In this document: positions 1 through 50,879 of the stretch, piece after piece | How positions within the stretch are numbered: the stretch's first letter is position 1 | Layout: each line of letters begins with the position of its first letter | Assembly (NCBI GenBank): GCA_045863235.1 | Contig: BTUM01000009.1 | Span: 68,015 to 132,014 of the forward strand | DNA: 64,000 nt | Direction of reading: 5' to 3' | Source of the DNA: Candidatus Xenobia bacterium | Lineage (GTDB): Bacteria > Vulcanimicrobiota > Xenobia > Xenobiales > QWHO01 | Program-made: the position numbers and the translations under genes | Notes under the pieces: generated by a model | What the model was told of the DNA's origin: nothing | Database searches by the model: none | The model's input: the letters and a program-made list of their open reading frames with translations, nothing else

Positions 1-834
1 CAGGAGTTCATGCTGGGCGAGGTGGCCCGGTCCTTGCGTCCCCCGGTGCACCGGCTGACGCTCGAGGAACGGGGCCAACACTTCCTGCAGTTGGCCGAGG
101 ACGTGCGCCAGGGGCCGGACGGCAAGACCTGGCTGGCCGACCGCACCGGCCGCGCCCTGAAGCTCTACGACCACCTGGCCAGAGCCGCCCCGCAAGACTT
201 TGGCGCCGCCGTGGCCCAATTGGGCCGAGTGACCCGGGTGGTGGGCGCCGAGCAAGCCCTCCAGGTCAGCAGCTACCTGCTCGACGAGCTCCCCCACAAG
301 AGCTTTTACGCCGAAGCCCGCCAGGAGCGCGAGGACACGCTGCTGGCCCTGCTGGGCCAGAGCCTGCCGGTGGAGGTGGCCGTGCGGCTGACCGAGCGAT
401 TGGCCCTCTGCCCGCTGGGCGAGACCCCCGAGCGGCGGCGCGAGGTCTTCCTGGACCTGGTCAGGCTGCATCCGGCCCAGGCCGAAGTGCACCTGGACAA
501 CATCCTCACCTTCCACCGTCCGGGCGCCGACCTGGGCCAGGGGGCGGCCGCCTACCGGATGCTGCTGGAAGGCCTGGTCACCATGGGGCGGCCTGAGGAG
601 GCTTCCGACGCTTACCGGTTTCTGCAGGAGGGCCTGCGTCTCGGACGTCTGTCCGGTACCCTCGAGGAGTTGATCGCGGGCTACCTCGGCAACCTGCTGG
701 TGAGCGGCGATCCAGCCCAGGCCCGAGCTGCCATGGCCGGCGATGGAGGCCAGGGTATTCCGGTCGTGCGCCAGGAGAACGGGGCGGTGCAGGTTGGAGC
801 CGTCCGGGTGCCGGTTCGCCGCAAGAGCGCCTGA
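1..834 (+). CDS. Hypothetical helical protein, 5'-truncated by the window, with the conserved C-terminal tail motif
   Basis: Frame open from base 1 (CAG GAG TTC ATG); ends ...VVRQENGAVQVGAVRVPVRRKSA. Confidence 0.75.
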   Translation, partial: QEFMLGEVARSLRPPVHRLTLEERGQHFLQLAEDVRQGPDGKTWLADRTGRALKLYDHLARAAPQDFGAAVAQLGRVTRVVGAEQALQVSSYLLDELPHKSFYAEARQEREDTLLALLGQSLPVEVAVRLTERLALCPLGETPERRREVFLDLVRLHPAQAEVHLDNILTFHRPGADLGQGAAAYRMLLEGLVTMGRPEEASDAYRFLQEGLRLGRLSGTLEELIAGYLGNLLVSGDPAQARAAMAGDGGQGIPVVRQENGAVQVGAVRVPVRRKSA

Positions 835-871
835 CTGAGCGACCGCGCACCGGGGTTTGGCGCACCCAACC

Positions 872-1813
872 TCAGGTGGGCGCGTTCGGATCGGTCACCG
901 GGCCCTCGGTCGAAGGCTGAGCGGTTTCCCGGGGGTCGGCCTCAAGAGGCGGCAGCTCGGGAGGGTGGCGCCGGCGCCACCAGCGCAGGCCCAGGGCCAC
1001 CAGTTGGGCCAGCAGCACGGGCGGGAAAACCAGCATGGGCACCAGCAACGCCAGCGAGATGGCCTGTGACATGACCAGCTCGAAGGCAAACCGCTCGACG
1101 TGGGGCTTGAGGTGCACCCGGCAGATGGAGATGGCGATCTCCTCGGAGGTGACCAGACCGTCCCTGTCACTGCTATGCAGGTCCTTGACGACCGGGCGGA
1201 TCACCTTCATCCGCTTGTCCACCGAGCTTCTGGTCCACCACCCGATGGTCCAGCGAATGATGAAACGCGACATACCGGCGGCGCGACCCTGCTTGTCGGC
1301 CCCGATGCGCTGGTTGACCTGATCGCAAGCTTCGCTCTCGAGCCACTCGGGCAATCCCAGGGCCAGCTGCTCCACCTGCTCGAGCTTGACCGGCTGGGCG
1401 TTCTCGAGGTAGGTGCGGGCCTGAACGATCTGCTCGGACTTCTCGGCCGTGGGATGGTGGGAGGCCGAGATGGCCAGGCTCACCACGGTCTGGAAAGCGA
1501 GCTTGCCCGACTGTTCGACCAGCGGTTCCTTGTGCACGAAGGATTTGACCTCGATGGCCAGCCCCGCGGTCAGGCCGGCCAGGGCCATCAGGCAGGGGAT
1601 GCTCACCACCCACACCGATACTACCGTCCAGCGGTAGAAGGGGTCGATGACCAGCCCCATGTCCAGCCAACCTCGACGGAACAAGAGCTTCCAGGCCAGC
1701 AGAGTGAGGAAGACGCCCAGCACCACGCCGGCGCAGGTACCAAGCCCCAGCCAGAGGAAGAGCTCGCCCACGTTGCGGGCCATGCAGTCGATAACCAGCC
1801 GAGCGGTCTGCAC
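872..1813 (-). CDS. Hypothetical membrane protein
   Basis: 313-aa ORF with three hydrophobic segments; start could instead be ATG 1783. Confidence 0.7.
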   Translation of the reverse strand: MQTARLVIDCMARNVGELFLWLGLGTCAGVVLGVFLTLLAWKLLFRRGWLDMGLVIDPFYRWTVVSVWVVSIPCLMALAGLTAGLAIEVKSFVHKEPLVEQSGKLAFQTVVSLAISASHHPTAEKSEQIVQARTYLENAQPVKLEQVEQLALGLPEWLESEACDQVNQRIGADKQGRAAGMSRFIIRWTIGWWTRSSVDKRMKVIRPVVKDLHSSDRDGLVTSEEIAISICRVHLKPHVERFAFELVMSQAISLALLVPMLVFPPVLLAQLVALGLRWWRRRHPPELPPLEADPRETAQPSTEGPVTDPNAPT

Positions 1814-1866
1814 TCCAAGCTTCTTCTCGCTGGCGACAGGAAACCCCTCACCGGTCAGTAAACCTC

Positions 1867-3378
1867 GTGTCCATGTCGGAGGCGGAACGGATCCAGCAGT
1901 TAGAGCGCGAGCTGATGCAGGCCCTGGAGAGCCTGCAGCAGGCCGAGCGCCGCATCACCCAGCTGGAAGAGCGAAGCCATCACGCCGAGGTGGTCGACGA
2001 AGAAACCCACAAGTTAGCCTTCGAAGACCCTCTGACGGGCCTGCCCAACCTGAACATCGTGCGCCAGTACGTGGAAATGAACCTCAAGCAGGTCTTCCGC
2101 TATCACCGTGCGGCCGCGCTGCTGGTGGTCGACCTGGATCGGTTCCGAGTCATCAACGACGCACTCGGGTTTGGCACTGGCGACGAGCTGCTTCGCCAGG
2201 TAGCCGAGCGCCTCAAGACGGCCGTGCGCGACTCGGACATCCTGGGACGCAAGGGAGAGGACGAATTCGTCATCCTGCTCACCCAGATCGACGAGGAGCT
2301 TTCTCAGGAGCCCGAGCTGAAAGACCGTCAGCGCCAGCAGCTAGGTGAGCGGGCTCGTCACGTGGCCGAGCGAGTGGCCGAGGTGCTGGCCCCGCCCTTC
2401 GAGCTTCAGGGCCAGAAAGTGCACCTCTTTGCCAGCGTGGGGGTGAGCCTCTGCCCGGGGGACGCCGAGACCCCGATGCAGCTCTTCGAGCACGCCGACG
2501 TGGCCCTCTCCTACGCCAAGGAGCAGGGAAGGGGCCGTTCGCTGGTCTTCAGTCCCGAACTGCAAGAGCTGCGGATGCAAAAGCTCTTGCTCGAGAACCA
2601 GCTGCGTCTGGCCCACACCGAGAAGCAATTCGTGCTGCACTACCAGCCCATCGTGGAGCTTTCCAGCCGCAACGTGGTGGGGGTCGAGGCTCTGCTGCGC
2701 TGGCAGCACCCCCAGATCGGCATGCTGGGGCCGCGCGACTTTCTGCACGTGCTGGAGGAGACCGGTCTCATCATCCCCCTGGGCGACTGGGTGCTGAAAG
2801 AATCCACCCGCCAACTGCGCGCCTGGGGCGACCAGGGGTTCGATCTCTTCCTGACGGTCAACCTCTCGCCCCGTCAGCTGTTGCAGGCCGACCTGATCCC
2901 CATGTTGCTGGACGTGCTGGGCCAGAACCAGATCGAGCCGAGGCACCTGGTGGTCGAGATCGCAGAGAGTGCGGCCACCACCATGGACCCCGAGCGCATG
3001 AGCCGGGTGCTGACCGACCTGGGAGAAGCCGGGGTGCGGGTGGCTATCGACGATTTCGGCACCGGTCTGACCTCCATGAAGACCCTGCGGCTCGAGCACA
3101 CGCGCCTGCTCAAGCTGGACCGCACCTTCGTGGCCGGCATCCCGGGCGAGCGAGCCAGCATGAGCGTTTGCATGGCCACCATCCGACTGGCCGCCAGCCT
3201 GAACATGAAGTCCCTGGCCGAAGGGGTGGAGACCGAGCGCCAGTGCAACTATCTCACCAAGAACGAATGCGATCTCGGGCAGGGCTTCTTCTTCTCGCCG
3301 CCCCTGGCGGCCGAGGAGATCCCCGACTTGATCCGCCAGGGCAAACCGGGCGCGGAGATCATCGGCATCCGTGGCTGA
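1867..3378 (+). CDS. Coiled-coil + GGDEF + EAL c-di-GMP signalling protein
   Basis: DPLTGLPN, DLDRF..IND.LG, RKGEDEF (variant GGDEF), VEALLRW, IDDFGTG, AEGVET, QGFFFS; alternative start ATG 1873. Confidence 0.92.
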   Translation: MSMSEAERIQQLERELMQALESLQQAERRITQLEERSHHAEVVDEETHKLAFEDPLTGLPNLNIVRQYVEMNLKQVFRYHRAAALLVVDLDRFRVINDALGFGTGDELLRQVAERLKTAVRDSDILGRKGEDEFVILLTQIDEELSQEPELKDRQRQQLGERARHVAERVAEVLAPPFELQGQKVHLFASVGVSLCPGDAETPMQLFEHADVALSYAKEQGRGRSLVFSPELQELRMQKLLLENQLRLAHTEKQFVLHYQPIVELSSRNVVGVEALLRWQHPQIGMLGPRDFLHVLEETGLIIPLGDWVLKESTRQLRAWGDQGFDLFLTVNLSPRQLLQADLIPMLLDVLGQNQIEPRHLVVEIAESAATTMDPERMSRVLTDLGEAGVRVAIDDFGTGLTSMKTLRLEHTRLLKLDRTFVAGIPGERASMSVCMATIRLAASLNMKSLAEGVETERQCNYLTKNECDLGQGFFFSPPLAAEEIPDLIRQGKPGAEIIGIRG

Positions 3379-6300
3379 GCCGCTGGAAGTTCCTCTCTTC
3401 CTGCTCACCTGCACTCTGGACAATGGTCTGACTCTGACCGAAGGAGTGTTTCATCCGGAAGTGTCCCGCTGGGGCAGCAAGAACCGCCCCTCCACGCGCG
3501 CCCTGGCGGAGAGCCTGCGGGTGCGAATCGAGCGAATGAGCCCGCTGGAGCTGGCCCGCCGGCTGCCCCCCGAGCAAGCCCGCCTGGTGCGCTGGACCCT
3601 GAACCTCCCCCCTCCGCGCCGGTCCGTCGCCTGGCAGGGCGATCTGGAACTGCAGTTCCACGCCCTGCTGTATCCCGTGGCCAACCTGTGGGCGGCCTAT
3701 GTGCCAGCTCTGCAGAGCTCGTTCTTCGCTCCTGAAGAGGCCGCTCTGGAAGAGACGGCTCGCTCGGAGCTGCTCCAGGAGCTGCTGCGGCGCCGGCTGA
3801 ACAGCCTGGATGCCCTGACCTTCCTGCAACGAGTGCGCACGCTGGTGGCCAGCGAATACCCGGTCACAGCCCGCCGCCACACGCTGAGGCAACTGGCCTC
3901 CCGCCAGGCCCAAAAGAGACTCCCCGCGGTGTTGCGCCAGGTGGGCACCGACCTGAGCACCGAAAGGCTCACCCCGGTCTATGAGCGTACCCCCCAGCTC
4001 GACCAGTTGGCGGCCCTGCTGACCGGGAAAAATCCCCGCTCGGTCCTGCTGGTGGGCCCCTCGGGGGTGGGCAAGTCGGCCCTCTTCCGCGAGCTGGCCC
4101 GGCGTCGACTCGATTACCAGCTGCAGGCCACCCCCTTCTGGGAGACCAGCGGGGCCCGCCTGATGGCCGGACAGGTAGCCTTCGGCAAGTGGCAGGAGCG
4201 CTGCCGGCGCCTGATTCTTGAGGCAGGACGGACGCGCGCCATCGTGCACCTGGGCAACCTGATGGAGCTTTGCCAGGTGGCCCGGCACGAAACCAACCCC
4301 TTCGGGATGGCAGGCTTCTTGCGCCCGGCTCTGGCTCGAGGAGAGCTCCTGGCAGTGGTGGAGTGCCTGCCCGAGCAGCTCAGCCTGTTGGAGAAGGAGC
4401 AGCCTCACCTGCTGGAGGCTTTCGCCCGGCTGGAGCTGGCCGAGCCGAGCCGCGAGCAGGCCCTCAGCATCCTGCTGCAGAGCGCTTGCGACCTGGGCTT
4501 CAAGGGCCCCACCGAGACCGCTCGCCGGGTCGAGACCTTCCATCGCCGCTTTGCCGCCTACTCGGCTTTTCCCGGCCGAGCCTTGCGATTTCTCCGTGCC
4601 CTGGTGCAACAAAACCGCGAGGCGACCCCGGCCGACGCGGCCCGTGCTTTCCACCTGGAAACCGGACTCCCCCTCTGGCTGCTGGACGAGTCCATCCCCT
4701 TCGACCCGCAATGGGCACGAGGCTGGTTTGCAGGCCAGGTCCTGGGCCAGCCGCGAGCCACCTCCCTGGTGGTGGACCGGCTGGCGCCCTCAAAGCCGGC
4801 CTCACCCGGCCTGATCGCCCCATCGCTTCCTTCCTGCTGATCGGGCCTACCGGGGTGGGTAAGACCGAAACCGCCCGGGCCCTGGCAGAATTTCTGTTCA
4901 GCGACCGCAATCGCCTGGTGCGCTTCGACATGAGCGAGTTCAGCGACCCCTGGGCGGTGGAGCGGCTGATCGGCTCGGAAGGGCTTTTGACCGCCCGGGT
5001 ACGCGAGCACCCCTTCAGCGTGGTCCTCTTCGACGAGTTGGAAAAGGCCCACCCCGACTTCTTCGACCTCTTGCTTCAGGTGCTCGGCGAGGCGCGCCTG
5101 ACCGACGCCTCCGGACGCCTGGCCGACTTCAGCAACAGCGTGGTCTTGATGACCTCCAACCTGGGGGCCCAGGAGTTTCAGAAAGGCTCGCTCGGCCTGC
5201 GCGCCCAGAGCGCCTCGGCCGAGCGCGAGTTCACCGAGGCGGTGCGTGCGGCCCTGCGCCCGGAGCTCTTCAACCGCATCGACCAGGTGCTGGCCTACGA
5301 ACCGCTCTCGCCCGAGACGGTGCTGGCCATCGCCCGCCGCGAGCTGCAGCAGGTCAGTGCCCGGGAAGGGGTGGCCAGCCGCCCGGTGCGACTCGAGCTG
5401 GCCGACCAGGCCGCCAGCCGCCTGGCCGAGTCGGGCTACGATCCCCGCTACGGAGCCCGTCCGCTCAAGCGGACTCTGGAGCGAGAGCTGCTCGCTCCGC
5501 TGGCCGAGGAGCTGAACCGCCATCCCCCCGAGCTCCCTCTGGACATTTCGGTGCAGGGCAATCTTCAGCTCACCACAAGCCTGCGCCCCACCGGTTACGA
5601 TCCGCTCGCCCGGGCGCGCTGGGCGGGCACATCCGTGGACCGGATCAGCAGCACCCGTCGGATGGGCCGTCAGGTGCTATCCGGTCCGCTGGTGACAGCC
5701 GTGCACAACGAAATGCACGCTCAACGCAAGCGACAACCCCGTAAACCGCCGGTCTACCATCCCGCTCAGGGCCTGCTGGACCGCCTTTCCCGATGGCTGA
5801 CCGAGATGGAGCAGTTAGAGGAGACGGCCCTGTTGCAGTTCTCCGAGAGCCGCCGGGGCGGAAGCTTCGACGCCGAGCAGTTGCTGGCCGCCCAGGAGCG
5901 GGCCGCGAGCGAGCTGGAAGCCCTTCTGCTCGACCTCTACGAACGCCAGAAGCCCGGCCGACTGGCTACCGTAGGCATCTTCAGCGAGCGAGCCGAGCTG
6001 GTGATGCTGCTGGCGCGCGCCTACGCCTCGCTGGCCGGCCGCTATGGCTGGAAGCTCAAGCTGGAGAGCGTGCGCATCCGCAAAGGCGATCCGAGCGACC
6101 CCCTGGAGCGGCGAACCGAGCCGGACAGCTTCCTGGCCGGCCACTCCTCGGTCCTGGGCGTGTTGCTGAGCTTCGAGGGGCGGCTGGCGGCCGCCCGCCT
6201 GCTGGGAGAGTCGGGTCCGCAGGCCTTTACCGGGCCCAACCCGACCGAGTTGCTGGGCCTGCTGGTGGCGGTGCAGCCGGTCGCCCTGGAAGGCTATCGC

Positions 6301-6492
6301 CCTCCGGAGGGGGTCCACCGCCGTGGATTCACCAGCCACCAGGGCCGCCAGCGAATCTACGACCGGGAGGCCCGCACGGTCCAGGATCCGGCACTCGGCA
6401 GTCGCGAGTGGACAGACCACCCCGGAGGGGCGCTGGGCAAGCTGATCGACGAGCGGCTGCGCCGCGAGGTCCTGGAGGCAGCTCTCCCCTGA
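3371..6492 (+). CDS. ClpA/B-like double AAA+ ATPase, split by a 1-nt frameshift near 4784-4786 (sequencing error or pseudogene)
   Basis: First part has Walker A GPSGVGKS and FPGRA. Second frame has RPIASFLLIGPTGVGKTE, RFDMSEF, VVLFDELEKAHP, MTSNLG, RPELFNRID, YGARPLKR. The two join as VVDRLA/ALKAGL if one base is restored. Confidence 0.85.
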
Positions 6493-6511
6493 CGGCGAAT
6501 TCTCCAACCAG

Positions 6512-15993: not shown

Positions 15994-16025
15994 AAGGGCC
16001 GGTCCTCGCGGACCGGCCCTTTCTT
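15994..16025 (+). terminator. Intrinsic terminator after groEL
   Basis: 12-bp stem AAGGGCCGGTCC/GGACCGGCCCTT, loop TCGC, followed by TCTT. Confidence 0.75.
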
Positions 16026-16762
16026 CATGGGTGCGCCCGCAACCAGAGGTGCAGCCAGCGCAGGTAGATCCAGCCCGGGTCGGTGCGGCGAGCCTCGGGG
16101 GGATAACCATTGGGCCATTTCTTGTCGGCCAGGTCGAGAAAGTCGGCCACCACCGGCCGTCCCAGCGACACATCGTTGTGACCGTAAACCTGGTGGGCGG
16201 GGATGGAGAACCGGCGCATCAGCCAGCGCACCAGGCAGAACGAGGCGTAGAGTTGGCGGGGGCGACTGAGCAGATCATCCTGGTTGAGGGCCACCATCTC
16301 CACCGAAAGGGCCTTGTGGTTGACCCCATAGGCCCCCGTACAGCGAAAGTCCAGCGGCAAGAGTTGGTAGACCGTGCCGTCCCTGTCCACCATCAGGTGA
16401 ACGCTGGGGTGGCCAAAGCTGACCCCGGTCCCGTTCCACATGCCGCCTCCGCGCACGAACCCGTTATAGACCCCGGTGGCCGAAGAGGTGACCGTGAAGT
16501 GCATGCAGATGGCGCTGGGACGAAAACGGACTCGTGCATCCCCGTAGTGACGCAGGAAATACTCGCTGTATTCGGCCTCCCACTCTTCGTAGGGGAGAAA
16601 CCAGGGCTCCAGGACCGGCGCTCGGTATGGCTTGTTTAGAAGACTCCGGGGGATGGGATGGGCCAGGTCGATGGCCCCGTTCATGGCCATCCGCCGCAGA
16701 GCCAGAACATCGTCGACATCGGGCCGGGAGCTGAGCGCCCAGAGCAAGAGAAGCCAGATCAC
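16025..16762 (-). CDS. N-acetylmuramoyl-L-alanine amidase (Amidase_2 type)
   Basis: ICMHFT, SVHLMV, SVEMV, YGHNDV, TDPG zinc-site pattern; short hydrophobic N-terminus from GTG 16762. Confidence 0.85.
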   Translation of the reverse strand: MIWLLLLWALSSRPDVDDVLALRRMAMNGAIDLAHPIPRSLLNKPYRAPVLEPWFLPYEEWEAEYSEYFLRHYGDARVRFRPSAICMHFTVTSSATGVYNGFVRGGGMWNGTGVSFGHPSVHLMVDRDGTVYQLLPLDFRCTGAYGVNHKALSVEMVALNQDDLLSRPRQLYASFCLVRWLMRRFSIPAHQVYGHNDVSLGRPVVADFLDLADKKWPNGYPPEARRTDPGWIYLRWLHLWLRAHP

Positions 16763-16847: not shown

Positions 16848-17384
16848 GTGTCCAATCCGCACCTGACCGACTACAACGAATCCGAGCGCACCGAGTACAT
16901 GATGGTGGTGGCCTCTATGGCCGGAGCCGATGGCGACGTGACCACCGAGGAGATCTACGCCATTCGGGCCCTCAGCCTGCACTTCGTGCTCGGTCCCGAA
17001 GCGCGCGGACAGGTGATGGCCTCCTGCACCGCCACTCCCGAGGAGATGGAGCAAGTCATCAAGCGCTTCGCCGAGAGCCGCCTCAAGTTCAGCCTGCTGC
17101 TCGACCTGGCCAACATGGCCTGGGCCGATGGCGCCCTGAAGGAGCCGGAGGAGGCCGAAATCCATCGCCTGGGCGGCCTGATGCAGGTCGAGCCCAAACA
17201 GATCAAAGCGGTGCTGAGTTTCGCCGAGACCCTGAGCAAGAACCCCACCCAGGAGCAGGTCGAGCAGGCGCTCAAATCGGTCGAGGCGGCCGGGGTGGAC
17301 CGCAATGCACTGGCCCTCTCGGCCACCCTGTACGCCCAGCAAAGCAAGTACGCAGCCGTAAGCGCTTTGTTCTCGCTCAGTTAA
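16848..17384 (+). CDS. TerB family (tellurite resistance-like) protein
   Basis: MAGADGDVTTEE and MAWADGALKEPE repeats; AAGGA RBS before GTG. Confidence 0.8.
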   Translation: MSNPHLTDYNESERTEYMMVVASMAGADGDVTTEEIYAIRALSLHFVLGPEARGQVMASCTATPEEMEQVIKRFAESRLKFSLLLDLANMAWADGALKEPEEAEIHRLGGLMQVEPKQIKAVLSFAETLSKNPTQEQVEQALKSVEAAGVDRNALALSATLYAQQSKYAAVSALFSLS

Positions 17385-29182: not shown

Positions 29183-29653
29183 TCAGAGGGTGCCTCCAGC
29201 AGCCAGGATCTCCATCGCCTCCCGGGGGGTCGTGTGGCCGTACAGAACGGCCAGAAGGCCCGGGAGAAAGAAGTCCATGCGGTGAATGTTGGTGTAGAGC
29301 AGGGGACGAAAGAGATTGTCGCTCAGCTCCCCGTCGAACACGTCCAGGCTGGTGCGGTAGCGAATCTCCCCGCGCTCGGAGATCAACTCGAACTGGCCCA
29401 GCGAGACCGAAAAGTTGGCCCGACCCAGGAACTCGACAGCCACCAGGCGGCGCTCGGGAGGGATGTTGACGGGACAGAAACTGTCGATGACCACCTGGTA
29501 ACCGCGTCGCTCCTCCAGTCGCTCCTCGACCGAGACGGAATAGTAGCCGTGCTTGCCCGAGTAGCGCAGCCGCAGCACGCCCTCCTCCAGCTCATAGGGC
29601 CAGCCGTCTCGTTCCAGGAACTGCCCCACGAAGGTCAGGATCTTGCCCATCAC
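29183..29653 (-). CDS. YbjN-like domain protein
   Basis: [24 protein letters not shown]...GEIRYRTS. Confidence 0.8.
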
Positions 29654-35334: not shown

Positions 35335-36495
35335 TCAACCGGCCAGCGCCAACCCGGCCTGGGCGCCGGCGCTTGCCCCCAGGCGGTTGCCCAGAACCCC
35401 GCCCACCACCAGGCCGACCGCGCCGCCGATAGGACCGGCCACCTGGTAACCCAGCATGGTCAGGCCCAGCGGGGCCGCGATGCCGCCCACCATGCCCCCC
35501 ACCGCTCCGCCCGCCAGGGCAGCGTAAGAAGCTCCGTCGCGAGCCCCCTTCTTCTGGGCGATCTCCAGGCCCCGGTGGGCGCCCAGAGCTCCCATTGCGA
35601 CAAACCCCAGCACCGGGTGCTTGTAGGAAAACATCAGGCTGGCCCCGGCCGCAAGCTGGGTGCCGCCGCTGACGGCGCGCATGGTGTCCTTGTTGGACAC
35701 GCCGCTGATCACTTCGCCCACCCCGTTGGCCGCCAGGCTGTAGGCCGCCACCTGGGTCAGCAGGCCCAGGCCCCAGCGCAGGTAAGGCACCTCCAGGCCG
35801 CGCGCGATGAGTTTGCCGGTCTCGCGAAACTCCTCGCGGTCCACAAAGGCCTGCATGAAGTTGGGCCGGTCGAGCCGCTCCATGGCGTCCATCTTCTCCT
35901 GGCTCACGTGGCGCAGGCGCTCGGGGTTGAGGCGATACTCAGCGTAGGTCTCGGCGAAGTCCTCCTGCTTGAGGGTTCCGGCGTAGCGCGAAACGTAGGG
36001 CGGGGCGCCGAACGGCTCGCTGGAGGAGTGCCCTCCGGTGATCACGCTGACCACCCCGCCCTCGTAGTCCCGGGTGTGACCGATCTCGTGCACGAGGGTG
36101 TAACGGAAGTTCTCGGGGTTGGTCATGCCGATGCCGGTGCGATTGATCTCGATGGAGTTGATGGCCGGGCGGGTGACCCCCAGCAGGTTGCTCGATCCCA
36201 GGCTCTCGCGCACCGAGATCGAGATCGGCCGGACGGCGTCGTACATCGGAAGCGAGTCCAGCGTCTGCCAGATCTGAGCCTTCTCAGCCGCGGTGCCGAA
36301 CACGCTGGGATAGATGAAGTTGGGCAGCGCTTTGTGGGTGTAAGCCAGCGCGTTGAGTCCGTCGCCCACCGCAGAGGAGAAGCGGTCCTTCAGGCTGGGA
36401 GGAGCCGGGGGCTCTTCCTCCTGGCTCGCGGGCGGCGGCTGGGGCGTTGCCAGTTGGCGCGGAAGGATGGGGGCGGGGGCGGCGGCGACGTGCAT
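35335..36495 (-). CDS. Zinc metallopeptidase (HExxH) with a C-terminal glycine-zipper region
   Basis: TLVHEIGH, YVSRYAG...EDFAETYAEY, GGAVGGMVGG...GGAVGLVVGGVLG. Confidence 0.78.
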   Translation of the reverse strand: MHVAAAPAPILPRQLATPQPPPASQEEEPPAPPSLKDRFSSAVGDGLNALAYTHKALPNFIYPSVFGTAAEKAQIWQTLDSLPMYDAVRPISISVRESLGSSNLLGVTRPAINSIEINRTGIGMTNPENFRYTLVHEIGHTRDYEGGVVSVITGGHSSSEPFGAPPYVSRYAGTLKQEDFAETYAEYRLNPERLRHVSQEKMDAMERLDRPNFMQAFVDREEFRETGKLIARGLEVPYLRWGLGLLTQVAAYSLAANGVGEVISGVSNKDTMRAVSGGTQLAAGASLMFSYKHPVLGFVAMGALGAHRGLEIAQKKGARDGASYAALAGGAVGGMVGGIAAPLGLTMLGYQVAGPIGGAVGLVVGGVLGNRLGASAGAQAGLALAG

Positions 36496-36538
36496 TGCGA
36501 TTGTGGCTCCAGACGGCAGGTGTCGCGGCTACCCTACC

Positions 36539-36567
36539 CTGAAAGAAAGCTGAAAGCGTTTCTGACA
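36539..36567 (-). promoter_or_regulatory. TTTCAG direct-repeat operator upstream of the metallopeptidase
   Basis: Minus strand TGTCAG-N6-TTTCAG-N5-TTTCAG. Confidence 0.55.
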
Positions 36568-36676: not shown

Positions 36677-38074
36677 TCAGTCGCGAACCGGAACGCGGAC
36701 TCCGTTGACCACCACGTAGCCGTCACGGGTCTCGACCCGGCCGGCCGGCAGGGGCTCGCTGGCAGGCAGGCGGGCGGTGTATTCCAGATGCCGATCGGTG
36801 AGTCGCACGAAACCCCGCTCGTCATAGCCATAGAGCTCTCGTCGCTGGCGGTCCTCGAAGAGAAGACGCCCATCGGCAGTCTCGCCGCGCAACTCGTACT
36901 CGTTGGCCGGCAACTCGATGCGCCGGGGGGGATCGTCCAGGCGGGTGACGGCCCGGTCGTGCCGCACCAGTCGCCCCTGCACGCTGGCCTTGGGACCGAA
37001 CTCGAGCACCTCGCGGCCCTCGGCGTTGAGACGCAAGATCTTGCCGCCCCCCATGTTCCAGAAGACCGTCCCTTTCGGGGTCACGTGGACATTGGGGCTC
37101 TCCCCCAGGCTCTCGCTCTCCCAGAGCTTGGAGCCATCGCTCGCGAGGCGTTGCAGGCATGACCTGCTGACGTACTGGGGAGCGAAGTGGTCCGGGTCCA
37201 TGCCGGGCCCAAAGCCCATGCCGCCACGAAATCGAAAGGCGTGGGGACCACGGATCTCGATGTTGGTGACCTCCTCGACCAGCACCTCACCCCTCTCCAG
37301 GGGCCAGAAACGACCGTGATAGTAGGAGGCCTTGCCTTCGGCCGGGCGAGCCTCCAGCTTGAGCCGGCCGCTCTCCTGGCCCCCCGGCCCGATCCGCACC
37401 AGCTCGTTGCCGGCCCGGAGCATCACCCCACCTTCCGGGGTGGCCACGGGGGGTTGTGCCCGCTCGGGGGAACCCTGCACCAGCGGCTTGCCGGACTTGT
37501 CGTAGGCCTCGAGCTTGCCTTCGGCCACCAGGTAGAGGCGCCCGGAGCTATCCTGGCAGGCTTCCGAGTAGACCTTTTTGGGGAAAGCGAGTTGGGAGCG
37601 CACCTGACCGTCGCTGCCAAAGCAAACCAGGCCGTCCTGGTTCTTGACGAGCAGGCTGTCCCCATCGGGGCTGACCGTCAGGCTGGAGATGGAGGCGAAG
37701 GGGGTGGGCGACTCCCAGGCGATGGAGCCATCCGGCTCCACCCGGGACAGGTAGGTGGCCTGGCGCGACTGGTAGGCCACGTAAATCTCCCCGCGAGGGC
37801 CCGACTTGAAGGCGACCGGGCGGTAGTCCTGCTGGTCCTTCTTGAGGTCGGCGGTGTGCACCAGCAAGCGGGTGGCCGAGCCCAGCTCCACGCCCTCGGA
37901 GCCGTTTAGGCGCCGCGCGTTGACATCTTCAGGAATTGGCGCGGCGCCGTTCAACAGATTGTCTGCAGTCCCGCCCGTTCTAATTCTGCACAGTTCAACG
38001 GGCGGGACTGTAGCGCTGGCCCTCACCAGGCGCTGGCGCCAGTAGTTGCCGTTGCTGCTCAGGGGCGAGATCAT
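36677..38074 (-). CDS. Beta-propeller-like hypothetical protein with the conserved C-terminal tail motif
   Basis: Repeats PDGSIAW, SDGSKLW; ends RVETRDGYVVVNGVRVPVRD; start ATG 38074 chosen from the upstream motif. Confidence 0.72.
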   Translation of the reverse strand: MISPLSSNGNYWRQRLVRASATVPPVELCRIRTGGTADNLLNGAAPIPEDVNARRLNGSEGVELGSATRLLVHTADLKKDQQDYRPVAFKSGPRGEIYVAYQSRQATYLSRVEPDGSIAWESPTPFASISSLTVSPDGDSLLVKNQDGLVCFGSDGQVRSQLAFPKKVYSEACQDSSGRLYLVAEGKLEAYDKSGKPLVQGSPERAQPPVATPEGGVMLRAGNELVRIGPGGQESGRLKLEARPAEGKASYYHGRFWPLERGEVLVEEVTNIEIRGPHAFRFRGGMGFGPGMDPDHFAPQYVSRSCLQRLASDGSKLWESESLGESPNVHVTPKGTVFWNMGGGKILRLNAEGREVLEFGPKASVQGRLVRHDRAVTRLDDPPRRIELPANEYELRGETADGRLLFEDRQRRELYGYDERGFVRLTDRHLEYTARLPASEPLPAGRVETRDGYVVVNGVRVPVRD

Positions 38075-38082
38075 GCGGCGAC

Positions 38083-38115
38083 ATCCTGCTCCGACTGGCT
38101 GAAAAAAACCTGAAA
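38083..38115 (-). promoter_or_regulatory. TTTCAG-N5-TTTCAG box plus -10-like hexamer
   Basis: TTTCAG-GTTTT-TTTCAG-N10-CAGGAT-N8-ATG. Confidence 0.62.
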
Positions 38116-40725: not shown

Positions 40726-40758
40726 TTTCAGCCGCCTTTCAGGCGCTCGAGCGAGAAT
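40726..40758 (+). promoter_or_regulatory. TTTCAG-N5-TTTCAG box plus -10-like hexamer
   Basis: TTTCAG-CCGCC-TTTCAG-N10-GAGAAT-N6-ATG. Confidence 0.62.
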
Positions 40759-40764
40759 GGGGCG

Positions 40765-41403
40765 ATGATAAAGACTGATCGTCAGGCCCTGCTCACACGC
40801 CTGGCCGCTCTCGAGCGCCAGGGGATCTTCTGGGACTGCGACGTCTCCGCGGCCCGCAGCGACCTGGAGCTGTTCGAGCGCCACACCCCGCCCGAGGAGC
40901 CCCTGGAGCGCACCGCCGACCTCTACGAGACCCTGTTCCGGGATGAGAAAGAGCGCCATCGCGCGGTGGACCCCACCGGCCCGGCCCGCCGGGCGCTGGA
41001 GACGATTCACAGCTGCCTCGAGCCGGGCGAAGACCGGACCCGGGCGCTGGAGGCCTATCGCAAGCTCTGGAGCCACTCGCTCGAGCACGGACTCTACGAA
41101 ACCCCCGGCGAACCGGTGGATCTGACCGCTCGCAAACGCTTTCAGCTCATCGACGAGCACATGCTGGAGGGAGACGACCGCGTTCACTGCGTCCAGCAAT
41201 TTCTGGCCGACCCGCCCAACTTTGCCCAGCTCAAGCAGCAAGAAAGAGAGCGGCGCCAGCAGGAAGAGAGCGAGATGGCCGGGCGCTGGGAGCGCCTTCA
41301 GAAGCCCGAGGGGTGTACCTCTCTGGGCCGGCAGGAGGATTACCTCATCGTGGGCGGAAGCCGGGTGCCCTGCAAGCCCCATGGATCCTCTGAATCTTCT
41401 TGA
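40765..41403 (+). CDS. Hypothetical helical protein with the conserved C-terminal tail motif
   Basis: 212-aa ORF ending SLGRQEDYLIVGGSRVPCKPHGSSESS. Confidence 0.7.
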   Translation: MIKTDRQALLTRLAALERQGIFWDCDVSAARSDLELFERHTPPEEPLERTADLYETLFRDEKERHRAVDPTGPARRALETIHSCLEPGEDRTRALEAYRKLWSHSLEHGLYETPGEPVDLTARKRFQLIDEHMLEGDDRVHCVQQFLADPPNFAQLKQQERERRQQEESEMAGRWERLQKPEGCTSLGRQEDYLIVGGSRVPCKPHGSSESS

Positions 41404-41689
41404 AGTCAATGCGGCCGAGCTGGACGGGCTGGAAGCCGGTCCGGACGAGCTGATCGTAGTGGCTGCCACCTGGGGCCGCGGCTGCTCGCCCGAGTTGCTG
41501 CGCCGCCTGGAGCCCTTCCGCCGCCGCTCGGGCTATAACGGCACCCTGGTGGCTGTCGTGCCGCGCTCGCACGCAGGCGAGGTCCTGGGCCAGGATGCCC
41601 CCGAGCACCGCCCCGGGCAGGTCCCCATCTTGTCGCTGGCGTTCGGGCGCCGTCACCTGGACTGGCGTCCGGGCCTGCCTCCAGGCTGA
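41381..41689 (+). CDS. Small protein, possible degenerate thioredoxin fold
   Basis: LIVVAATWGRGC resembles VxFxATWCxxC; overlaps the upstream gene by 23 nt; followed by a terminator. Confidence 0.5.
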   Translation: MDPLNLLEVNAAELDGLEAGPDELIVVAATWGRGCSPELLRRLEPFRRRSGYNGTLVAVVPRSHAGEVLGQDAPEHRPGQVPILSLAFGRRHLDWRPGLPPG

Positions 41690-41700
41690 CGGTCCTATCC

Positions 41701-41742: not shown

Positions 41743-41755
41743 GACCTGGCCCCAC

Positions 41756-43271: not shown

Positions 43272-43285
43272 CGAACACATATTCG
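43272..43285. promoter_or_regulatory. LexA (Gram-positive-type SOS) box-like site
   Basis: CGAAC-ACAT-ATTCG, one mismatch to CGAAC-N4-GTTCG. Confidence 0.45.
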
Positions 43286-43359
43286 TGCTCAACCGGGCGG
43301 CGCACGACTCCGACTCGCAACCTGTCGGTTTCGCGCGCGACGAGGGATGGGGAGGAACG

Positions 43360-46172: not shown

Positions 46173-46588
46173 AGTGGTGGCTCGCCCCTGCCCTGGTGGC
46201 CGCCGCCCTGATTCAGGGCGGCTGGGGCGTGCCGCTGGACCTGGTCTTGCTGCTCACGATCGCGGCCGCCCGGCGCCGGCTGGTGCCGGGCGGAACCCTG
46301 GTGGGCCTGCTCGGTGGACTCTTGCTGGGGGCGGTGCGGGGGATTGGCTCGGGCCCGCTCTCGGCTCTCTACGTGGCCTGTGGCTGGCTGGCGGGAGCCT
46401 GGTTCGAGCGCGGCCTGGGCACCGGTGCCCGGGCCATGCTGCTGGGAGCCGGCCTCTTCAGCCTGGTGGTGGCCGGGGACACGGTGCTGCGCCTCACCCT
46501 GGGCCAGCCTCTGGAGCTCAGTCAGTTTGCCAGCGCCTGGCGCATCCTTCTCGTGCACGCCGCCCTGACCTGGTGGGTGGCCCGGTGA
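46169..46588 (+). CDS. mreD: Rod shape-determining protein MreD (divergent)
   Basis: Small multi-TM protein with DLVLL and GLLGGLL, between mreC and pbp2. Confidence 0.7.
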   Translation: MKWWLAPALVAAALIQGGWGVPLDLVLLLTIAAARRRLVPGGTLVGLLGGLLLGAVRGIGSGPLSALYVACGWLAGAWFERGLGTGARAMLLGAGLFSLVVAGDTVLRLTLGQPLELSQFASAWRILLVHAALTWWVAR

Positions 46589-46589
46589 C

Positions 46590-48368: not shown

Positions 48369-49468
48369 AGACGCGTACCCTGCTGATATCCTCCAGCCTG
48401 GCCCTGTGGCTGCTCGGCTGCCTGGTGCTCTTCTCGGCCACCCGCTGGCAGGGGAGCGCCGGATTGCTCTTGCGCCAGCTGGCCGCGGGAGCGGTGGGGC
48501 TGAGCCTGGGATTGGCGCTGGCACGGCTGGAGCTGAGCCGGTTGCGCCAGCTGACCTGGCCCCTGTACGGGGCCGGACTGGTCAGCCTGGCGGTCGTGCT
48601 GGCGGCCGGCACCTCGGCCAAGGGGGCCCAGCGCTGGCTCTCTTTAGGCCCGCTGGGCACCATCCAGCCCTCCGAGCCGATGAAGCTTCTCCTGGTGCTG
48701 GCCCTGGCCCACCTCCTTACGCGCCTCCCGGCCCGTCGAGCGGGGGGCTTTCTGCTGGCCTGGGTGCTGACCGGAGTGGCCTTCTTGATGGTGGCCGCCC
48801 AGCCCGACCTGGGCACCGGACTGGTGCTGGTGGCCGTCGCCTTCGGGATGCTGTGGGTGGCGGGCGCCTCGCCCGTCTACCTGGCGGGTGTGGCCGTGGG
48901 AGGTCTGGGAGCGTTGACCTTCGTGCTCAAGGAGTACCAGCGCGACCGCATCATGGTCTTCTTGCACCCGGATCTCGATCCCATGGGCCAGGGCTACAGC
49001 CTCATGCAGTCCCTGACGGCCATCGGCTCGGGCCAAGTGTTCGGCCGGGGGCTCTTCGCCGGCCACCTGACCCAGCAGGGCTTCGTGCCCGAGAACTGGA
49101 CCGACTTTGCCTTTACCGTGGTGGGCGAGGAGCTGGGCCTGGCCGGCAGTCTGGGCCTGCTGCTACTGTGTGCCCTGCAACTGGGCAGCCTGCTGGTCAT
49201 CGCCTGGCGCAGCCAGGACTATCCTCGCCTGCTGGCCACGGGTGTGGCCGTCATGCTGGGCTTCCAGCTCTCGGTCAACCTGGCCATGACCATGGGCATG
49301 GCCCCCGTGGTCGGGATCCCCCTGCCCCTGGTCAGCTACGGGGGCAGCGCACTGATCACCAACCTGGCCGCCCTGGGCCTGGTCGCGGGTCTGGCCCGCC
49401 GAAGTCCACCCCGTCAGGCCACCGTGCACCCCCTGCCCGTGCGCCAGCGACTGCCCCTGGCCGGATGA
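48365..49468 (+). CDS. rodA: SEDS glycosyltransferase RodA
   Basis: GAQRWL, IQPSEPMK, QPDLGT, YQRDRI, PENWTDF, GEELG, GIPLPLVSYGGS. Confidence 0.94.
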   Translation: MKTRTLLISSSLALWLLGCLVLFSATRWQGSAGLLLRQLAAGAVGLSLGLALARLELSRLRQLTWPLYGAGLVSLAVVLAAGTSAKGAQRWLSLGPLGTIQPSEPMKLLLVLALAHLLTRLPARRAGGFLLAWVLTGVAFLMVAAQPDLGTGLVLVAVAFGMLWVAGASPVYLAGVAVGGLGALTFVLKEYQRDRIMVFLHPDLDPMGQGYSLMQSLTAIGSGQVFGRGLFAGHLTQQGFVPENWTDFAFTVVGEELGLAGSLGLLLLCALQLGSLLVIAWRSQDYPRLLATGVAVMLGFQLSVNLAMTMGMAPVVGIPLPLVSYGGSALITNLAALGLVAGLARRSPPRQATVHPLPVRQRLPLAG

Positions 49469-49490
49469 GCCGTTCCAAGATTCCCACTGG

Positions 49491-49523
49491 CTTTAGGTTT
49501 GTTTCAGCTCTCTGAAATAGGCT
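49491..49523 (+). promoter_or_regulatory. TTTCAG repeat box plus -10-like hexamer
   Basis: CTTTAG-GTTTG-TTTCAG-N10-TAGGCT-N9-ATG. Confidence 0.55.
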
Positions 49524-49532
49524 GGAGAAGCC

Positions 49533-50879
49533 ATGAGAATTGCCGAAATCGCCCAGCCGGGTTTCTTCCAGTATCGTCCCAACGCGGCCAGCAGTTCGTC
49601 CGAGGGCGACCGGTTCGAGCCGAGCGGCCCCCAGGAGCCCGTCCGGCTGACCCAGGCGATGCTCGGCGAACTGATGCGCACCAACGTGGGGACCGACCAC
49701 CTGGTGGCCTGGAAGCTGCAACTGCCCGGGGGCCTGGTGCGCGACAATCCCACCTTCGGCCCCGACGGCACGGTCTACGTGCCCCAGTCGGGCGGAACCA
49801 CCCTGATCAACAGCAATGAAGGTCGCATCATCGACCACCACAAATTCGAGCAGCCCTGCGAGGCGGCCGCGGCCATGGCCCCCAACGGCGACCTGCTGCT
49901 GCCCCACAAGGGGCTGACCCGCTATCGTCCCGACATGTCGGAGGTCTGGAATCAAGACAAGGTTCCCTACGGCAACCAGCCACCACTGCTCGGACCCGAC
50001 CAGAGCACCTACGTAGCGGGCTACAGTCCCAAAGGGACGGTCACCCGGGTGACCCCGGACGGGCAGATCGCCTGGTCGACGGAGGTTCGTCGCGGCACAG
50101 GCGACCACATGGATACCCCGATGTCGCTCAGCCCCGATGGAAAGCGCCTCTACGCTGGCGGAGAAGGGATCCTGTTTGCCCTCGACCCGGCCTCGGGCAA
50201 GGTGCTGTGGGGTAAGGGGAAGGCCCATTCCACCGTGCAGGTGGGCTGCCGCCCCCTGGTGACCCCGCGCGACCAGGTGGTGGTCTCTGGGATGAGCAAC
50301 CAGGTGACCTGTTTTGACAGCGACGGCAAGGAGGTCTGGAAATGGTCGGCCCGCTTCGAGAAGCGCAGCGACGAGCTGACCCGCAAAGAGCGCGAGGAGG
50401 CTTTCGGTTGGGGCAACGGGCTGATCGAGTCGAGCCCCACGCTCACCAGGGATGGGCAAACCATCCTGGTGGCTGGTGACGAAAAGTTGCTGGCCCTGGA
50501 TCTCGATGGCAACCTGCGCTGGAAGAAGGAGCTGCCGGGAGCGAGCCTGCTTCGCGACGAGGCCATCCAGGTCGGGCCGGACGGGAGCATCTACGTCAAG
50601 TCAGACCACAATACCCAGGTCTGGGCCTTCAACGAGCAGGGAGAGCAGATCTGGCATTATGCCAACCACAGCCCTAGCGGCTCGGCCTTCATGGCCGTCA
50701 ATCAGGACACGGTGGTCTTCGTCACCCGCGAGGGAAGTGCCGTGGCCCTGCGCCAGGACGCGCTGCGCAAGCGTATCGAAGAGGTGGCTGCCCGCCCGGA
50801 CGATTCGCCCAGCCAGATCCAGGTGGGCAACGGCGTGGTCACCGTGGGCGGAGTGCGCGTCAAGACGCGTGCCCGCTGA
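49533..50879 (+). CDS. PQQ-like beta-propeller protein with the conserved C-terminal tail motif
   Basis: Repeats GPDGTVYV, ALDPASGKVLW, ALDLDGNLRW; ends QIQVGNGVVTVGGVRVKTRAR. Confidence 0.82.
   Translation: MRIAEIAQPGFFQYRPNAASSSSEGDRFEPSGPQEPVRLTQAMLGELMRTNVGTDHLVAWKLQLPGGLVRDNPTFGPDGTVYVPQSGGTTLINSNEGRIIDHHKFEQPCEAAAAMAPNGDLLLPHKGLTRYRPDMSEVWNQDKVPYGNQPPLLGPDQSTYVAGYSPKGTVTRVTPDGQIAWSTEVRRGTGDHMDTPMSLSPDGKRLYAGGEGILFALDPASGKVLWGKGKAHSTVQVGCRPLVTPRDQVVVSGMSNQVTCFDSDGKEVWKWSARFEKRSDELTRKEREEAFGWGNGLIESSPTLTRDGQTILVAGDEKLLALDLDGNLRWKKELPGASLLRDEAIQVGPDGSIYVKSDHNTQVWAFNEQGEQIWHYANHSPSGSAFMAVNQDTVVFVTREGSAVALRQDALRKRIEEVAARPDDSPSQIQVGNGVVTVGGVRVKTRAR

What the first reader, a model, noticed from the sequence alone, without database searches (positions are those of the whole stretch)
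763..50879. Shared C-terminal tail on four unrelated proteins: candidate undescribed export/sorting signal
Seen in sequence: four dispersed genes end in a gaplessly alignable 19-aa motif at or near the C-terminus. These are VVRQENGAVQVGAVRVPVR (763-834), RVETRDGYVVVNGVRVPVR (36677-36739, minus), SLGRQEDYLIVGGSRVPCK (41320-41403) and QIQVGNGVVTVGGVRVKTR (50814-50879). The consensus is [VIL]xxx[NDE][GD]x[VL]xV[GN][GA][VS]RV[PK]x[RK], preceded by a Pro/Gly/Ser linker. The protein bodies differ (two helical, two propeller-like), and the three complete ones have no hydrophobic signal peptide. Established knowledge: portable C-terminal tags route cargo in T9SS (CTD), T4SS (basic tails), sortase and exosortase systems; this motif has no TM helix and matches none of those as I know them. 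Inference: a small beta-hairpin tag recognised by a secretion machine, chaperone or scaffold. Four copies in 64 kb would imply a large genome-wide family.
Basis: partly seen in the sequence, partly recalled or inferred. Interest (0 to 1): 0.9.

Follow-up and report, generated by a model that had tools for sequence, protein, structure and literature searches.

The report
C-terminal tag marks flagellum-derived secretion cargo
About 180 unrelated proteins of an uncultured bacterium end in the same short, undescribed tail and mostly share one promoter-like DNA motif with a gene of a motor-less, flagellum-derived secretion cluster, so the tail is likely a docking tag on proteins that this machine would export.

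Summary
The four tails are real. A position-blind HMM finds 178 copies in 177 ORFs of this Ca. Eremiobacterota genome: 172 lie within 30 aa of the stop, and reversed ORFs give 3. The bodies fall into 96 unrelated clusters, 2 of 169 have a signal-peptide-like start, and no Pfam, NCBIfam or PDB family covers the tail. It is C-terminal in six families of the phylum.

New here: 112 of 173 tail genes (2% of other genes) carry one promoter-like motif, TTCAG-N6-TTTCAG-N10-TANNNT. It also precedes an 80-aa helical gene beside flhA in a conserved flagellum-derived export cluster; this genome has no flagellin, FlgK or MotB. Tail proteins have N-termini like type III substrates. VirB4, VirD4 and T6SS were not found.

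Best reading (0.45): export through this machine by an N-terminal signal, with the tail a three-strand docking tag for a conserved machine part. Partner and export are untested. Many genomes with the machine lack the tail, so it is not the essential signal. No earlier scan note on this tail was found.

The parts
763..819 (+). Tail core 1 (19 aa), followed by 4 residues and the stop at 832-834
1..834 (+). 3' part of tagged orphan protein 1 (483 aa; starts 617 nt before the window; no Pfam family above cut-off; promoter motif not found)
36683..36739 (-). Tail core 2
36677..38074 (-). Tagged protein 2, PQQ_2-type beta-propeller, 465 aa from the likely ATG at 38074
38082..38115 (-). Promoter-like motif (11-bp direct repeat plus -10-like hexamer), score 29.9, placed for a leaderless start at 38074
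40726..40759 (+). Promoter-like motif, score 27.5, placed for a leaderless start at 40765
40765..41403 (+). Tagged orphan protein 3, 212 aa, no Pfam or NCBIfam family
41320..41376 (+). Tail core 3, followed by 8 residues
49491..49524 (+). Promoter-like motif, score 28.8, placed for a leaderless start at 49533
49533..50879 (+). Tagged protein 4, PQQ_2-type beta-propeller, 448 aa, with a Ser/Pro-rich type III-like N-terminus
50814..50870 (+). Tail core 4; 68-100% identical in four orthologues, against 24-64% for the N-terminal 50 aa and 66-91% for the body
35335..36495 (-). Tail-less gene with a type III-like N-terminus and a weak copy of the promoter motif (36522-36555, score 14); probable member of the same gene set

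Best explanation
The tail is a portable ~22-residue module on about 180 signal-peptide-less proteins, predicted to fold as a three-stranded sheet with one hydrophobic face, and it likely docks these proteins on a conserved part of a flagellum-derived type III secretion machine that would export them. SHOWN: family size, C-terminal position, unrelated bodies, lack of signal peptides, a shared promoter-like motif with the 80-aa gene next to flhA, and a conserved export cluster in a genome without flagellin, FlgK or MotB. PREDICTED: the three-strand fold. INFERRED: (1) the motif is an activator-dependent, mostly leaderless promoter that co-regulates 300-400 genes; (2) their Ser/Pro-rich N-termini are the export signal; (3) the 80-aa helix is the filament subunit that replaces hook and flagellin; (4) the tail's aliphatic face and basic end bind a conserved machine part (FlhA cytoplasmic domain, FliH/I/J, the 80-aa protein or one of three conserved accessory proteins). 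It would then be a built-in second address that sorts a mostly non-catalytic cargo class (propellers, MAM/CUB lectin-like and orphan proteins) from the untagged hydrolases, much as flagellar late substrates pair an N-terminal signal with a C-terminal chaperone site (recalled). My odds: about 0.7 that the tagged proteins are cargo of this machine, about 0.6 given that for a machine-side receptor.
For: Position: 172 of 178 hits within 30 aa of the stop; 34 of 34 and 27 of 30 in relatives; 18 of 22 best stretches within 9 aa of the C-terminus in the 1.84-billion-protein library. Portability: 169 bodies form 96 BLAST clusters, and some families hold both tagged and untagged paralogues. No Sec route: hydrophobic N-terminal stretch in 2 of 169 against 1432 of 5356 other proteins. 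Shared motif: cross-validated score >=12 before 112 of 173 tail genes against 150 of 6985 others; score 27.7 before the third 80-aa gene, and 24.9-27.2 at the same place in G104, G046 and G054. N-termini: a classifier trained on 215 tail-less motif genes separates 104 tail genes from background with AUC 0.91 and puts the FlgJ-like, FliK, FliE and 80-aa proteins at the 93rd-97th percentile. Machine: flgBC-fliEFGHIJ-slt-fliK-flgE/G-fliMNOPQR-flhBA cluster, same gene order in the stretches read from 12 relatives. No flagellin, MotB or FlgK in this 97.6%-complete genome. Four flagellin-bearing relatives hold two full FlhA genes. All 14 of 301 genomes with 3 or more tail hits have the 80-aa gene. 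Other routes not found: VirB4 0 of 5, VirD4 0 of 11, VipB 0 of 5, phage sheath 0 of 1, type I HlyD above cut-off 0 of 11. Fold: pLDDT 75.6, three strands; five conserved aliphatic positions, strand 1 net -1.4, strand 3 plus end +2.9.
Against: No export, binding or transcription start was measured. 39 of the 53 genomes with the 80-aa gene had no tail hit, and the broader model added only weak C-terminal hits in 3 of the 32 of them re-searched. The cluster has no gene specific to tail-bearing genomes. Apart from one 80-aa gene, no machine gene carries the motif. The motif set also holds transporters and housekeeping-type enzymes, so it is not purely a secretion regulon. Only 6 of 36 tail genes in other genomes scored >=10 with this matrix. 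Co-occurrence is clade-level, not independent. The classifier left the rod proteins FlgC and FlgE/G near the median and scored non-secreted FliM at the 89th percentile, and tail-gene starts were chosen by the motif. Two chaperone-fold candidates and the FlhA-C-only paralogues do not follow the tail's distribution. The 80-aa model is one long helix, not a needle hairpin (single sequence). No secretin or L/P-ring gene lies in the cluster, so how cargo would cross an outer membrane is open.
Confidence: 0.45

Rival explanations
1. The proteins leave by the same machine, but the tail acts after delivery: it anchors or aims them at a membrane or a conserved protein of the prey or host cell.
For: The tail is optional across machine-bearing genomes and no receptor gene tracks it. 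Tagged proteins are mostly non-catalytic: 28 propellers, 6 MAM-domain proteins, 5 other hits and 138 with no family among 177, against 27 enzyme families among 87 untagged motif genes. It is an amphipathic sheet with a basic end. Untagged motif genes include SLT, NlpC/P60 and LysM proteins, which fits a bacterial target.
Against: The tail sequence is held across six families with very different genome sizes, which an own, conserved receptor explains more simply than a shared prey target. The first strand is acidic, unlike a plain membrane anchor.
Confidence: 0.2
2. The tail is a self-association module, like a foldon or a donor strand, that oligomerises each protein or strings different tagged proteins into a surface lattice or fibre tip.
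For: It has an exposed hydrophobic face and oppositely charged edge strands, with a weak coupling between positions -7 and +7 (z 4.1). Some proteins have two copies (P0005, P0006). Cargo is rich in binding-type folds.
Against: Near-identical tails on about 180 proteins would cross-assemble in the cytoplasm (inference). The coupling may be within one chain or reflect subfamilies.
Confidence: 0.1
3. The tail is the true C-terminal export signal of another transporter (an ABC/HlyD type I-like exporter or an undescribed one), and the type III link is only co-regulation.
For: A C-terminal position and no signal peptide fit type I and type IV logic. HlyD-like proteins below cut-off are many (22 matches in this genome).
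Against: No HlyD above the type I cut-off in 11 genomes, no RTX families on the cargo, no VirB4 or VirD4. Six copies sit 171-297 aa from the end. Tagged and untagged motif genes share type III-like N-termini. Tail genes have no recurring transporter neighbour.
Confidence: 0.1
4. The tail is a degradation tag (ClpX-, Lon- or Tsp-type) that clears these proteins when they are not exported.
For: Basic C-terminal ends resemble some ClpX signals (recalled). One quality-control tag could be shared by unrelated proteins.
Against: The last residue varies over 17 amino acids and the GG turn lies 8-37 aa from the end; six copies are internal; a folded three-strand core is more than a degron needs.
Confidence: 0.08

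Closest known systems
Flagellar type III export of late substrates (N-terminal signal plus C-terminal site for FlgN, FliT or FliS; recalled)
   Same: FlhA/FlhB/FliPQR/FliHIJ/FliGMN apparatus with rod genes and FliK; two-ended cargo layout.
   Different: No flagellin, FlgK or MotB in this genome. About 180 unrelated cargo share one beta-strand tail, where flagellar chaperone sites are helical and cargo-specific (recalled).
Non-flagellar type III injectisome and the effector chaperone-binding domain (PMC10025392, passages read)
   Same: Motor-less type III apparatus, a small helical candidate filament subunit, a large co-regulated set of signal-peptide-less proteins with Ser/Pro-rich N-termini.
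   Different: Keeps flgB, flgC, fliE and fliG/M/N/O and has no secretin in the cluster. Its FlhA groups with Bacillota/Actinomycetota/Armatimonadota FlhA, away from the Myxococcota/Chlamydiota/Achromobacter group. The review places the chaperone-binding domain just after the N-terminal signal; this tail is at the C-terminus. No CesT hit in this genome.
T9SS C-terminal domain (Bacteroidota; recalled)
   Same: Portable beta-rich C-terminal module on many unrelated exported proteins.
   Different: About 22 aa instead of about 80; cargo lack the Sec signal peptide that T9SS cargo need; no Pfam or NCBIfam CTD match.
T4SS C-terminal translocation signals (VirF, RalF, Legionella E-block; PMC10025392, passages read)
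   Same: Short C-terminal signal on signal-peptide-less cargo; basic end.
   Different: No VirB4 (0 of 5) or VirD4 (0 of 11); a conserved hydrophobic beta core rather than a loose charge pattern.
SARP/OmpR-type activator promoters (afs box; PMC10936776, passages read)
   Same: Two direct repeats 11 bp apart over the -35 region, just upstream of a -10 hexamer; this genome has 20 BTAD proteins.
   Different: Different repeat sequence; 10 nt from the conserved hexamer to the -10 box against the paper's 8 bp from the repeat; activator not identified.

Membership tests
Any described Pfam, NCBIfam or PDB domain | Tail matches a curated model or solved chain | tested here: not met
   60 tails: no family matched more than 1 member, best E 0.023; PDB profile best E 0.076; no fold at Z>=2 (weak for 32 aa); Atlas no usable hit
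T9SS CTD | Cargo carry an N-terminal Sec signal peptide | tested here: not met
   2 of 169 by a crude hydrophobicity rule; SignalP not available
T9SS CTD | Por/Spr/Gld machinery in the genome | not tested
   no search made
T4SS C-terminal signal | VirB4 and a VirD4 coupling protein present | tested here: not met
   PF03135 0 of 5 genomes; PF02534 0 of 11; Dot/Icm-specific families not searched
Type I secretion signal | Type I HlyD/ABC exporter and RTX-type cargo | tested here: inconclusive
   TIGR01843 above cut-off in 0 of 11, but many weaker HlyD-like matches; no RTX families on 177 cargo
Sortase or exosortase sorting signal | Motif followed by a transmembrane helix and basic residues | tested here: not met
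   The 239-tail profile has no transmembrane stretch
Canonical non-flagellar T3SS | Core export genes (SctRSTUV, N, J, Q equivalents) in one cluster | tested here: met
Canonical non-flagellar T3SS | Secretin in the locus and loss of flgB, flgC, fliE (criterion recalled) | tested here: not met
   flgB, flgC, fliE present; the three secretin hits lie on other contigs
Canonical non-flagellar T3SS | Export gate groups with SctV | tested here: not met
   FastTree of 93 rows: the 14 cluster copies form one branch (SH 100) among Terrabacteria FlhA; midpoint root, SctV group identified from recall
Canonical non-flagellar T3SS | SctF-type helix-turn-helix needle subunit | tested here: inconclusive
   80-aa protein has no Pfam family and models as one helix from a single sequence
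Motile flagellum | Flagellin, hook-filament junction and stator | tested here: not met
   Flagellin 0; MotB and FlgK 0 in G000, G046, G035 and present in G054, G007
Type III substrate | Export depends on the N-terminal segment and the apparatus | not testable with these tools
   only compositional support
Class I chaperone-binding beta motif | A CesT/YbjN-fold chaperone co-occurs with and binds the motif | tested here: inconclusive
   CesT absent in G000; two YbjN-fold candidates do not track the tail; binding not modelled
C-terminal degron or PDZ-type ligand | Fixed terminal residues with a free carboxylate | tested here: not met
   17 different last residues, 8-37 aa from GG to the end, 6 internal copies
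SARP/OmpR-type activated promoter | 11-bp direct repeats over -35, shortly upstream of -10 | tested here: met
   position profile compared with PMC10936776; binding and transcription start not shown

The most novel reading that the evidence does not exclude
This lineage turned a duplicate flagellar basal body into an injectisome-like device independently of the known type III systems. It uses an 80-aa helical protein as filament, exports 300 or more co-regulated proteins, probably into bacterial prey, and sorts them with a two-ended code: an N-terminal export signal plus a universal C-terminal beta tag that docks directly on the machine in place of dedicated chaperones.
Probability: 0.3. Interest if true: 0.95.

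Novelty: new variant of a known kind. Interest (0 to 1): 0.85.

Why it matters
Type III cargo are recognised by fuzzy N-terminal signals, and the review passages I read describe no shared C-terminal tag for them. Here one 22-residue motif marks about 2.5% of a proteome, so a cargo class can be listed by sequence alone. The tail also exposes a second, apparently independent conversion of a flagellum into a motor-less export machine, a natural comparison for the long-standing question of how injectisomes arose. It gives a concrete mechanism to test for the predatory lifestyle proposed for related Eremiobacterota (PMC9259500, passages read), and 138 orphan proteins become candidate interbacterial effectors or adhesins. 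A short portable tag with a few candidate receptors can be tested without culturing the organism.

Tried and rejected
Chance or frame artefact: rejected (reversed-ORF control; 173 of 177 ORFs called as genes by an independent codon model; matched control windows gave 0 hits at >=10 bits against 165 in C-terminal windows).
Sigma-28 promoter upstream of tail genes: my first idea; not enriched, and another motif appeared instead.
Cognate chaperone or immunity neighbours: no recurring small neighbour family among 326 neighbours; 11 adjacent tail-tail pairs against a random mean of 4.4.
FlhA-C-only paralogues as tail receptors: present with or without tails.
YbjN-fold proteins as receptors: the window's copy is missing from tail-bearing g8, g9, f4 and f19 and present in tail-less g2; the acidic C2 copy is in all 10 f3 genomes and missing from f2 and f19.
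The 80-aa gene as a marker of the machine: imperfect; genomes such as G050 and G016 have the cluster without a hit.
Single hits in G231, G298 and G090 are internal, 81-500 aa from the stop, and were dropped as noise; P0013 is a repeat-rich sequence without the GG core.
Structure searches of the 32-aa model gave nothing, which says little at this length.
A scan of viral contigs could not be built from the tail alignment.
RNA data: only low-depth contigs. Four runs cover parts of 49000-51200; one contig starts at 49517 and three end at 50914-50917, but another spans the promoter. DNA carry-over is not excluded and no silent stretch was laid, so this is no evidence.
Literature: searches found no paper on this tail or this cluster; (Eremiobacterota + flagellar + type III secretion system) gave 0 papers.
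Full report
OBSERVATION. The window (66% GC) lies in an 8.36-Mb, 97.6%-complete genome. Homologous tail proteins are named 'Candidatus Eremiobacterota bacterium' and 'bacterium CPR1'. The class name Xenobia comes from an earlier scan note and was not tested. All four motifs are present as reported. Two bodies are PQQ_2-type propellers; nothing covers the tail in Pfam or NCBIfam.

FAMILY. An HMM from the four tails gave 62 hits in 108,809 six-frame ORFs, 51 under 15 aa from the stop. Position-blind iteration gave 142 hits at E<1e-3 (reversed ORFs 0) and 178 at E<1 (reversed 3). These lie in 177 ORFs on 83 contigs: 159 end within 10 aa of the stop, 172 within 30, and six are 171-297 aa inside. 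The model was trained on these same ORFs, so the independent tests matter. In relatives 34 of 34 hits and 27 of 30 loci are C-terminal; the three exceptions are single weak internal hits. In the 1.84-billion library 18 of 22 best stretches end within 9 aa of the C-terminus. A census on C-terminal windows of called genes gives 165 at >=10 bits (control windows 0) and 190 at >=6 bits (control 5). No Pfam, NCBIfam, PDB-sequence, Atlas or fold match was found.

ANATOMY. Over 239 tails the pattern is a Gly/Ser/Pro linker, [VI]-x-[EV]-x-x-[DG]-x-V-x-[VI]-G-G-V-R-[LV]-[RKP]-[RK]-R, then a variable end. AlphaFold gives three strands at pLDDT 75.6, pTM 0.37. The five conserved aliphatic positions alternate so as to fall on one face (my inference from the register). 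Strand 1 is acidic (-1.4) and strand 3 with the end is basic (+2.9). The last residue varies over 17 amino acids and the GG turn lies 8-37 aa from the end, so a free carboxylate is not what is read. In four orthologues of the window's fourth protein the tail is as conserved as the body and far more than the N-terminus.

CARGO. 173 of 177 ORFs are called as genes by an independent codon model. The 169 bodies of 150 aa or more form 96 BLAST clusters. Pfam on all 177: 28 propellers, 6 InhA-like MAM proteins, 5 other hits, 138 with no family at E<=1e-4. A hydrophobic N-terminal stretch occurs in 2 of 169 against 1432 of 5356 other proteins (crude rule). Tail genes are rarely operon-internal (12 of 166 against 2070 of 6829) and have no recurring partner gene. 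Some families hold tagged and untagged paralogues.

THE MACHINE. The genome has one full FlhA and six partial FHIPEP matches. The full copy ends a cluster flgB, flgC, fliE, fliF, fliG (2), fliH, fliI, fliJ, slt, fliK, flgE/G, fliM, fliN (2), fliO, fliP, fliQ (2), fliR, flhB, flhA, followed after two metabolic genes and a 104-aa gene by three near-identical 81-codon genes. A second small cluster holds FlgJ-like, FlhB-C-like, FliK-like and, by BLAST, rod genes. Flagellin, MotB and FlgK are not found. Four relatives with flagellin have two full FlhA genes; in G054 one lies near motB and the other beside the 80-aa genes. The same gene order holds in the stretches read from 12 relatives, tail-bearing or not, with three further conserved unknown genes. 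In a FastTree of 93 export-gate proteins the 14 cluster copies form one branch (SH 100) among Bacillota, Actinomycetota, Chloroflexota and Armatimonadota FlhA, apart from an 8-row group that I read from recall as SctV (midpoint root, no topology test, the lineage's own flagellar copies not included). The 80-aa protein models as a single helix; its role as filament subunit is a guess from size, copy number and position. VirB4, VirD4, VipB, phage sheath and type I HlyD above cut-off were not found.

DISTRIBUTION. Of 301 genomes of the phylum, 16 had a tail hit and 14 had three or more; all 14 have the 80-aa gene, found in 53. That search scored at most 26 candidates per genome. A broader model on 53 chosen genomes added weak C-terminal hits in G084, G060 and G088 and left most others empty. 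So the tail is nested inside the machine's range: massive in this genus (136-278 candidates), a few to about 20 copies in four other families, not found in many. Kin are not independent, so this is weak support. Three unpublished genomes (G263, G212, G247) enter only the tallies.

THE LINK. Looking for a sigma-28 promoter, I found instead TTTCAG upstream of 66 of 173 tail genes against 343 of 6985 others. The profile is TTCAG-N6-TTTCAG-N10-TANNNT, with the start codon 5-8 nt later, which implies leaderless mRNA (inferred). Cross-validated, 112 of 173 tail genes score >=12 against 150 of 6985 others. Genome-wide there are 443 sites at >=14 against 64 in reversed sequence. Three of the window's four genes have it. 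The layout matches SARP-type promoters (PMC10936776, passages), and the genome has 20 BTAD proteins. The third 80-aa gene carries the same motif (score 27.7, with a leader and ribosome-binding site), as do its counterparts in G104, G046 and G054. Other machine genes do not. Only 6 of 36 tail genes in other genomes score >=10, so the link is shown mainly for this genus. A classifier trained on the N-termini of 215 tail-less motif genes recognises 104 tail genes (AUC 0.91) and ranks FlgJ-like, FliK, FliE and the 80-aa protein at the 93rd-97th percentile, but not FlgC or FlgE/G. Of 87 tail-less motif genes scanned (of 246), 27 hit enzyme families, among them SLT, NlpC/P60, endonuclease I, GDPD, amylase, four acyltransferases and several peptidases; some are transporters or housekeeping-type enzymes. 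Tagged proteins have at most 3 enzyme-type hits in 177.

MECHANISM. Most likely an activator switches on 300-400 genes whose products carry N-terminal type III signals, and the tail is a second address on the mostly non-catalytic subset that binds a conserved part of the machine (0.45). The tail's conservation across distant families fits a receptor as conserved as FlhA (67-86% identity) or FliI (71-83%). Against this, the tail is dispensable in many lineages and no candidate receptor tracks it. Rivals: targeting after delivery (0.2), self-association (0.1), signal for another exporter (0.1), degron (0.08).

WHAT IS KNOWN. Searches (listings and abstract starts) found no description of the tail or the cluster. 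PMC9259500 (passages and supplement search) and its preprint 10.1101/2021.03.24.436479 (passages) report 'diverse secretion systems' and predicted predation in Ca. Eudoremicrobiaceae; one supplement row lists a putative T3SS as 'no_decision'. PMC11484240 (passages) does not mention secretion. PMC10025392 (passages) gives the standard N-terminal signal plus chaperone-domain model. Most subscription papers, one scanned supplement and all preprint supplements were out of reach, so a prior mention cannot be excluded. The scan's own notes hold nothing on this tail.

VERDICT. Observation confirmed and much larger than the window showed. The tail is an undescribed motif family tied by a shared promoter-like motif to an apparently undescribed flagellum-derived export cluster. 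It works like a secretion sorting tag but is not a member of the T9SS, T4SS, sortase or degron families. New variant of a known kind; interest 0.85.

Noticed in passing
window 28296-29174 (-) and 29183-29650 (-): Two adjacent YbjN-family proteins (type III chaperone-like fold, recalled), one a tandem double domain; six YbjN matches in the genome. Their distribution does not follow the tail.
   Followed up: yes
G000 C80:28012-29436, C3:26973-28121, C1:377631-378713, C106:14866-16857, C107:13658-15829: Stand-alone FlhA cytoplasmic-domain proteins, two fused to FliG-N. Relatives hold up to 15 FHIPEP matches, and the C80-type copy seems to be kept in nearly all genomes with the cluster. Function unknown; worth its own study.
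   Followed up: partly
L005:10987-12052 (G000 C27) and paralogues on C69, C78, C3, C74: Nine matches to the 80-aa helical protein in this genome, 99-100% identical within the genus and found in 53 of 301 genomes; candidate filament subunit with variants.
   Followed up: partly
genome-wide (G000): A promoter-like motif at about 330-440 sites, mostly placed for leaderless starts; 106 of 114 motif-bearing tail genes are leaderless-type against 149 of 280 others.
   Followed up: partly
L228:3013-6285 (G000 C11:109012-112284): Clostripain-like 1090-aa protein with the promoter motif and a tail-like sequence near its N-terminus instead of its end.
   Followed up: no
G000 C10:924-2966; P0005; P0006; C3:76119, C3:123379, C32:68044, C135:61: Proteins with two tail copies, and a four-member family in which a related ~170-215-aa domain follows the tail.
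   Followed up: partly
G000 C14:118649, C1:90583, C29:46849, C41:51055, C5:160017-180501 and others: About a dozen 620-780-aa MAM-domain paralogues with type III-like N-termini but neither tail nor promoter motif; they look like subtilisin-type proteases (recalled, not scanned).
   Followed up: no
G000 C5:112024, C7:90747, C147:4197: YidD-like segments on promoter-motif genes, one fused to a clostripain domain.
   Followed up: no
L005:12484-15702: A methyltransferase/MTHFR fusion and a class III aminotransferase sit between flhA and the 80-aa genes; one or both stay near flhA in G070, G052, G050 and G108.
   Followed up: no
window 3371-6492 (+): Two consecutive AAA+ ORFs, the second with ClpB-type D2 domains; possibly a split or atypical Clp ATPase.
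   Followed up: no
window 16025-16690 (-), 16848-17384 (+), 20145-21746 (+): An Amidase_2 protein, a TerB protein and a WD40 propeller without the tail.
   Followed up: no
window 41381-41689 (+): A 102-aa orphan ORF overlaps the stop of tagged protein 3; no Pfam family.
   Followed up: no
G035 C44:233200-235152: A divergent near-full-length FHIPEP gene (376 bits) in a flagellin-less genome, besides the cluster copy.
   Followed up: no
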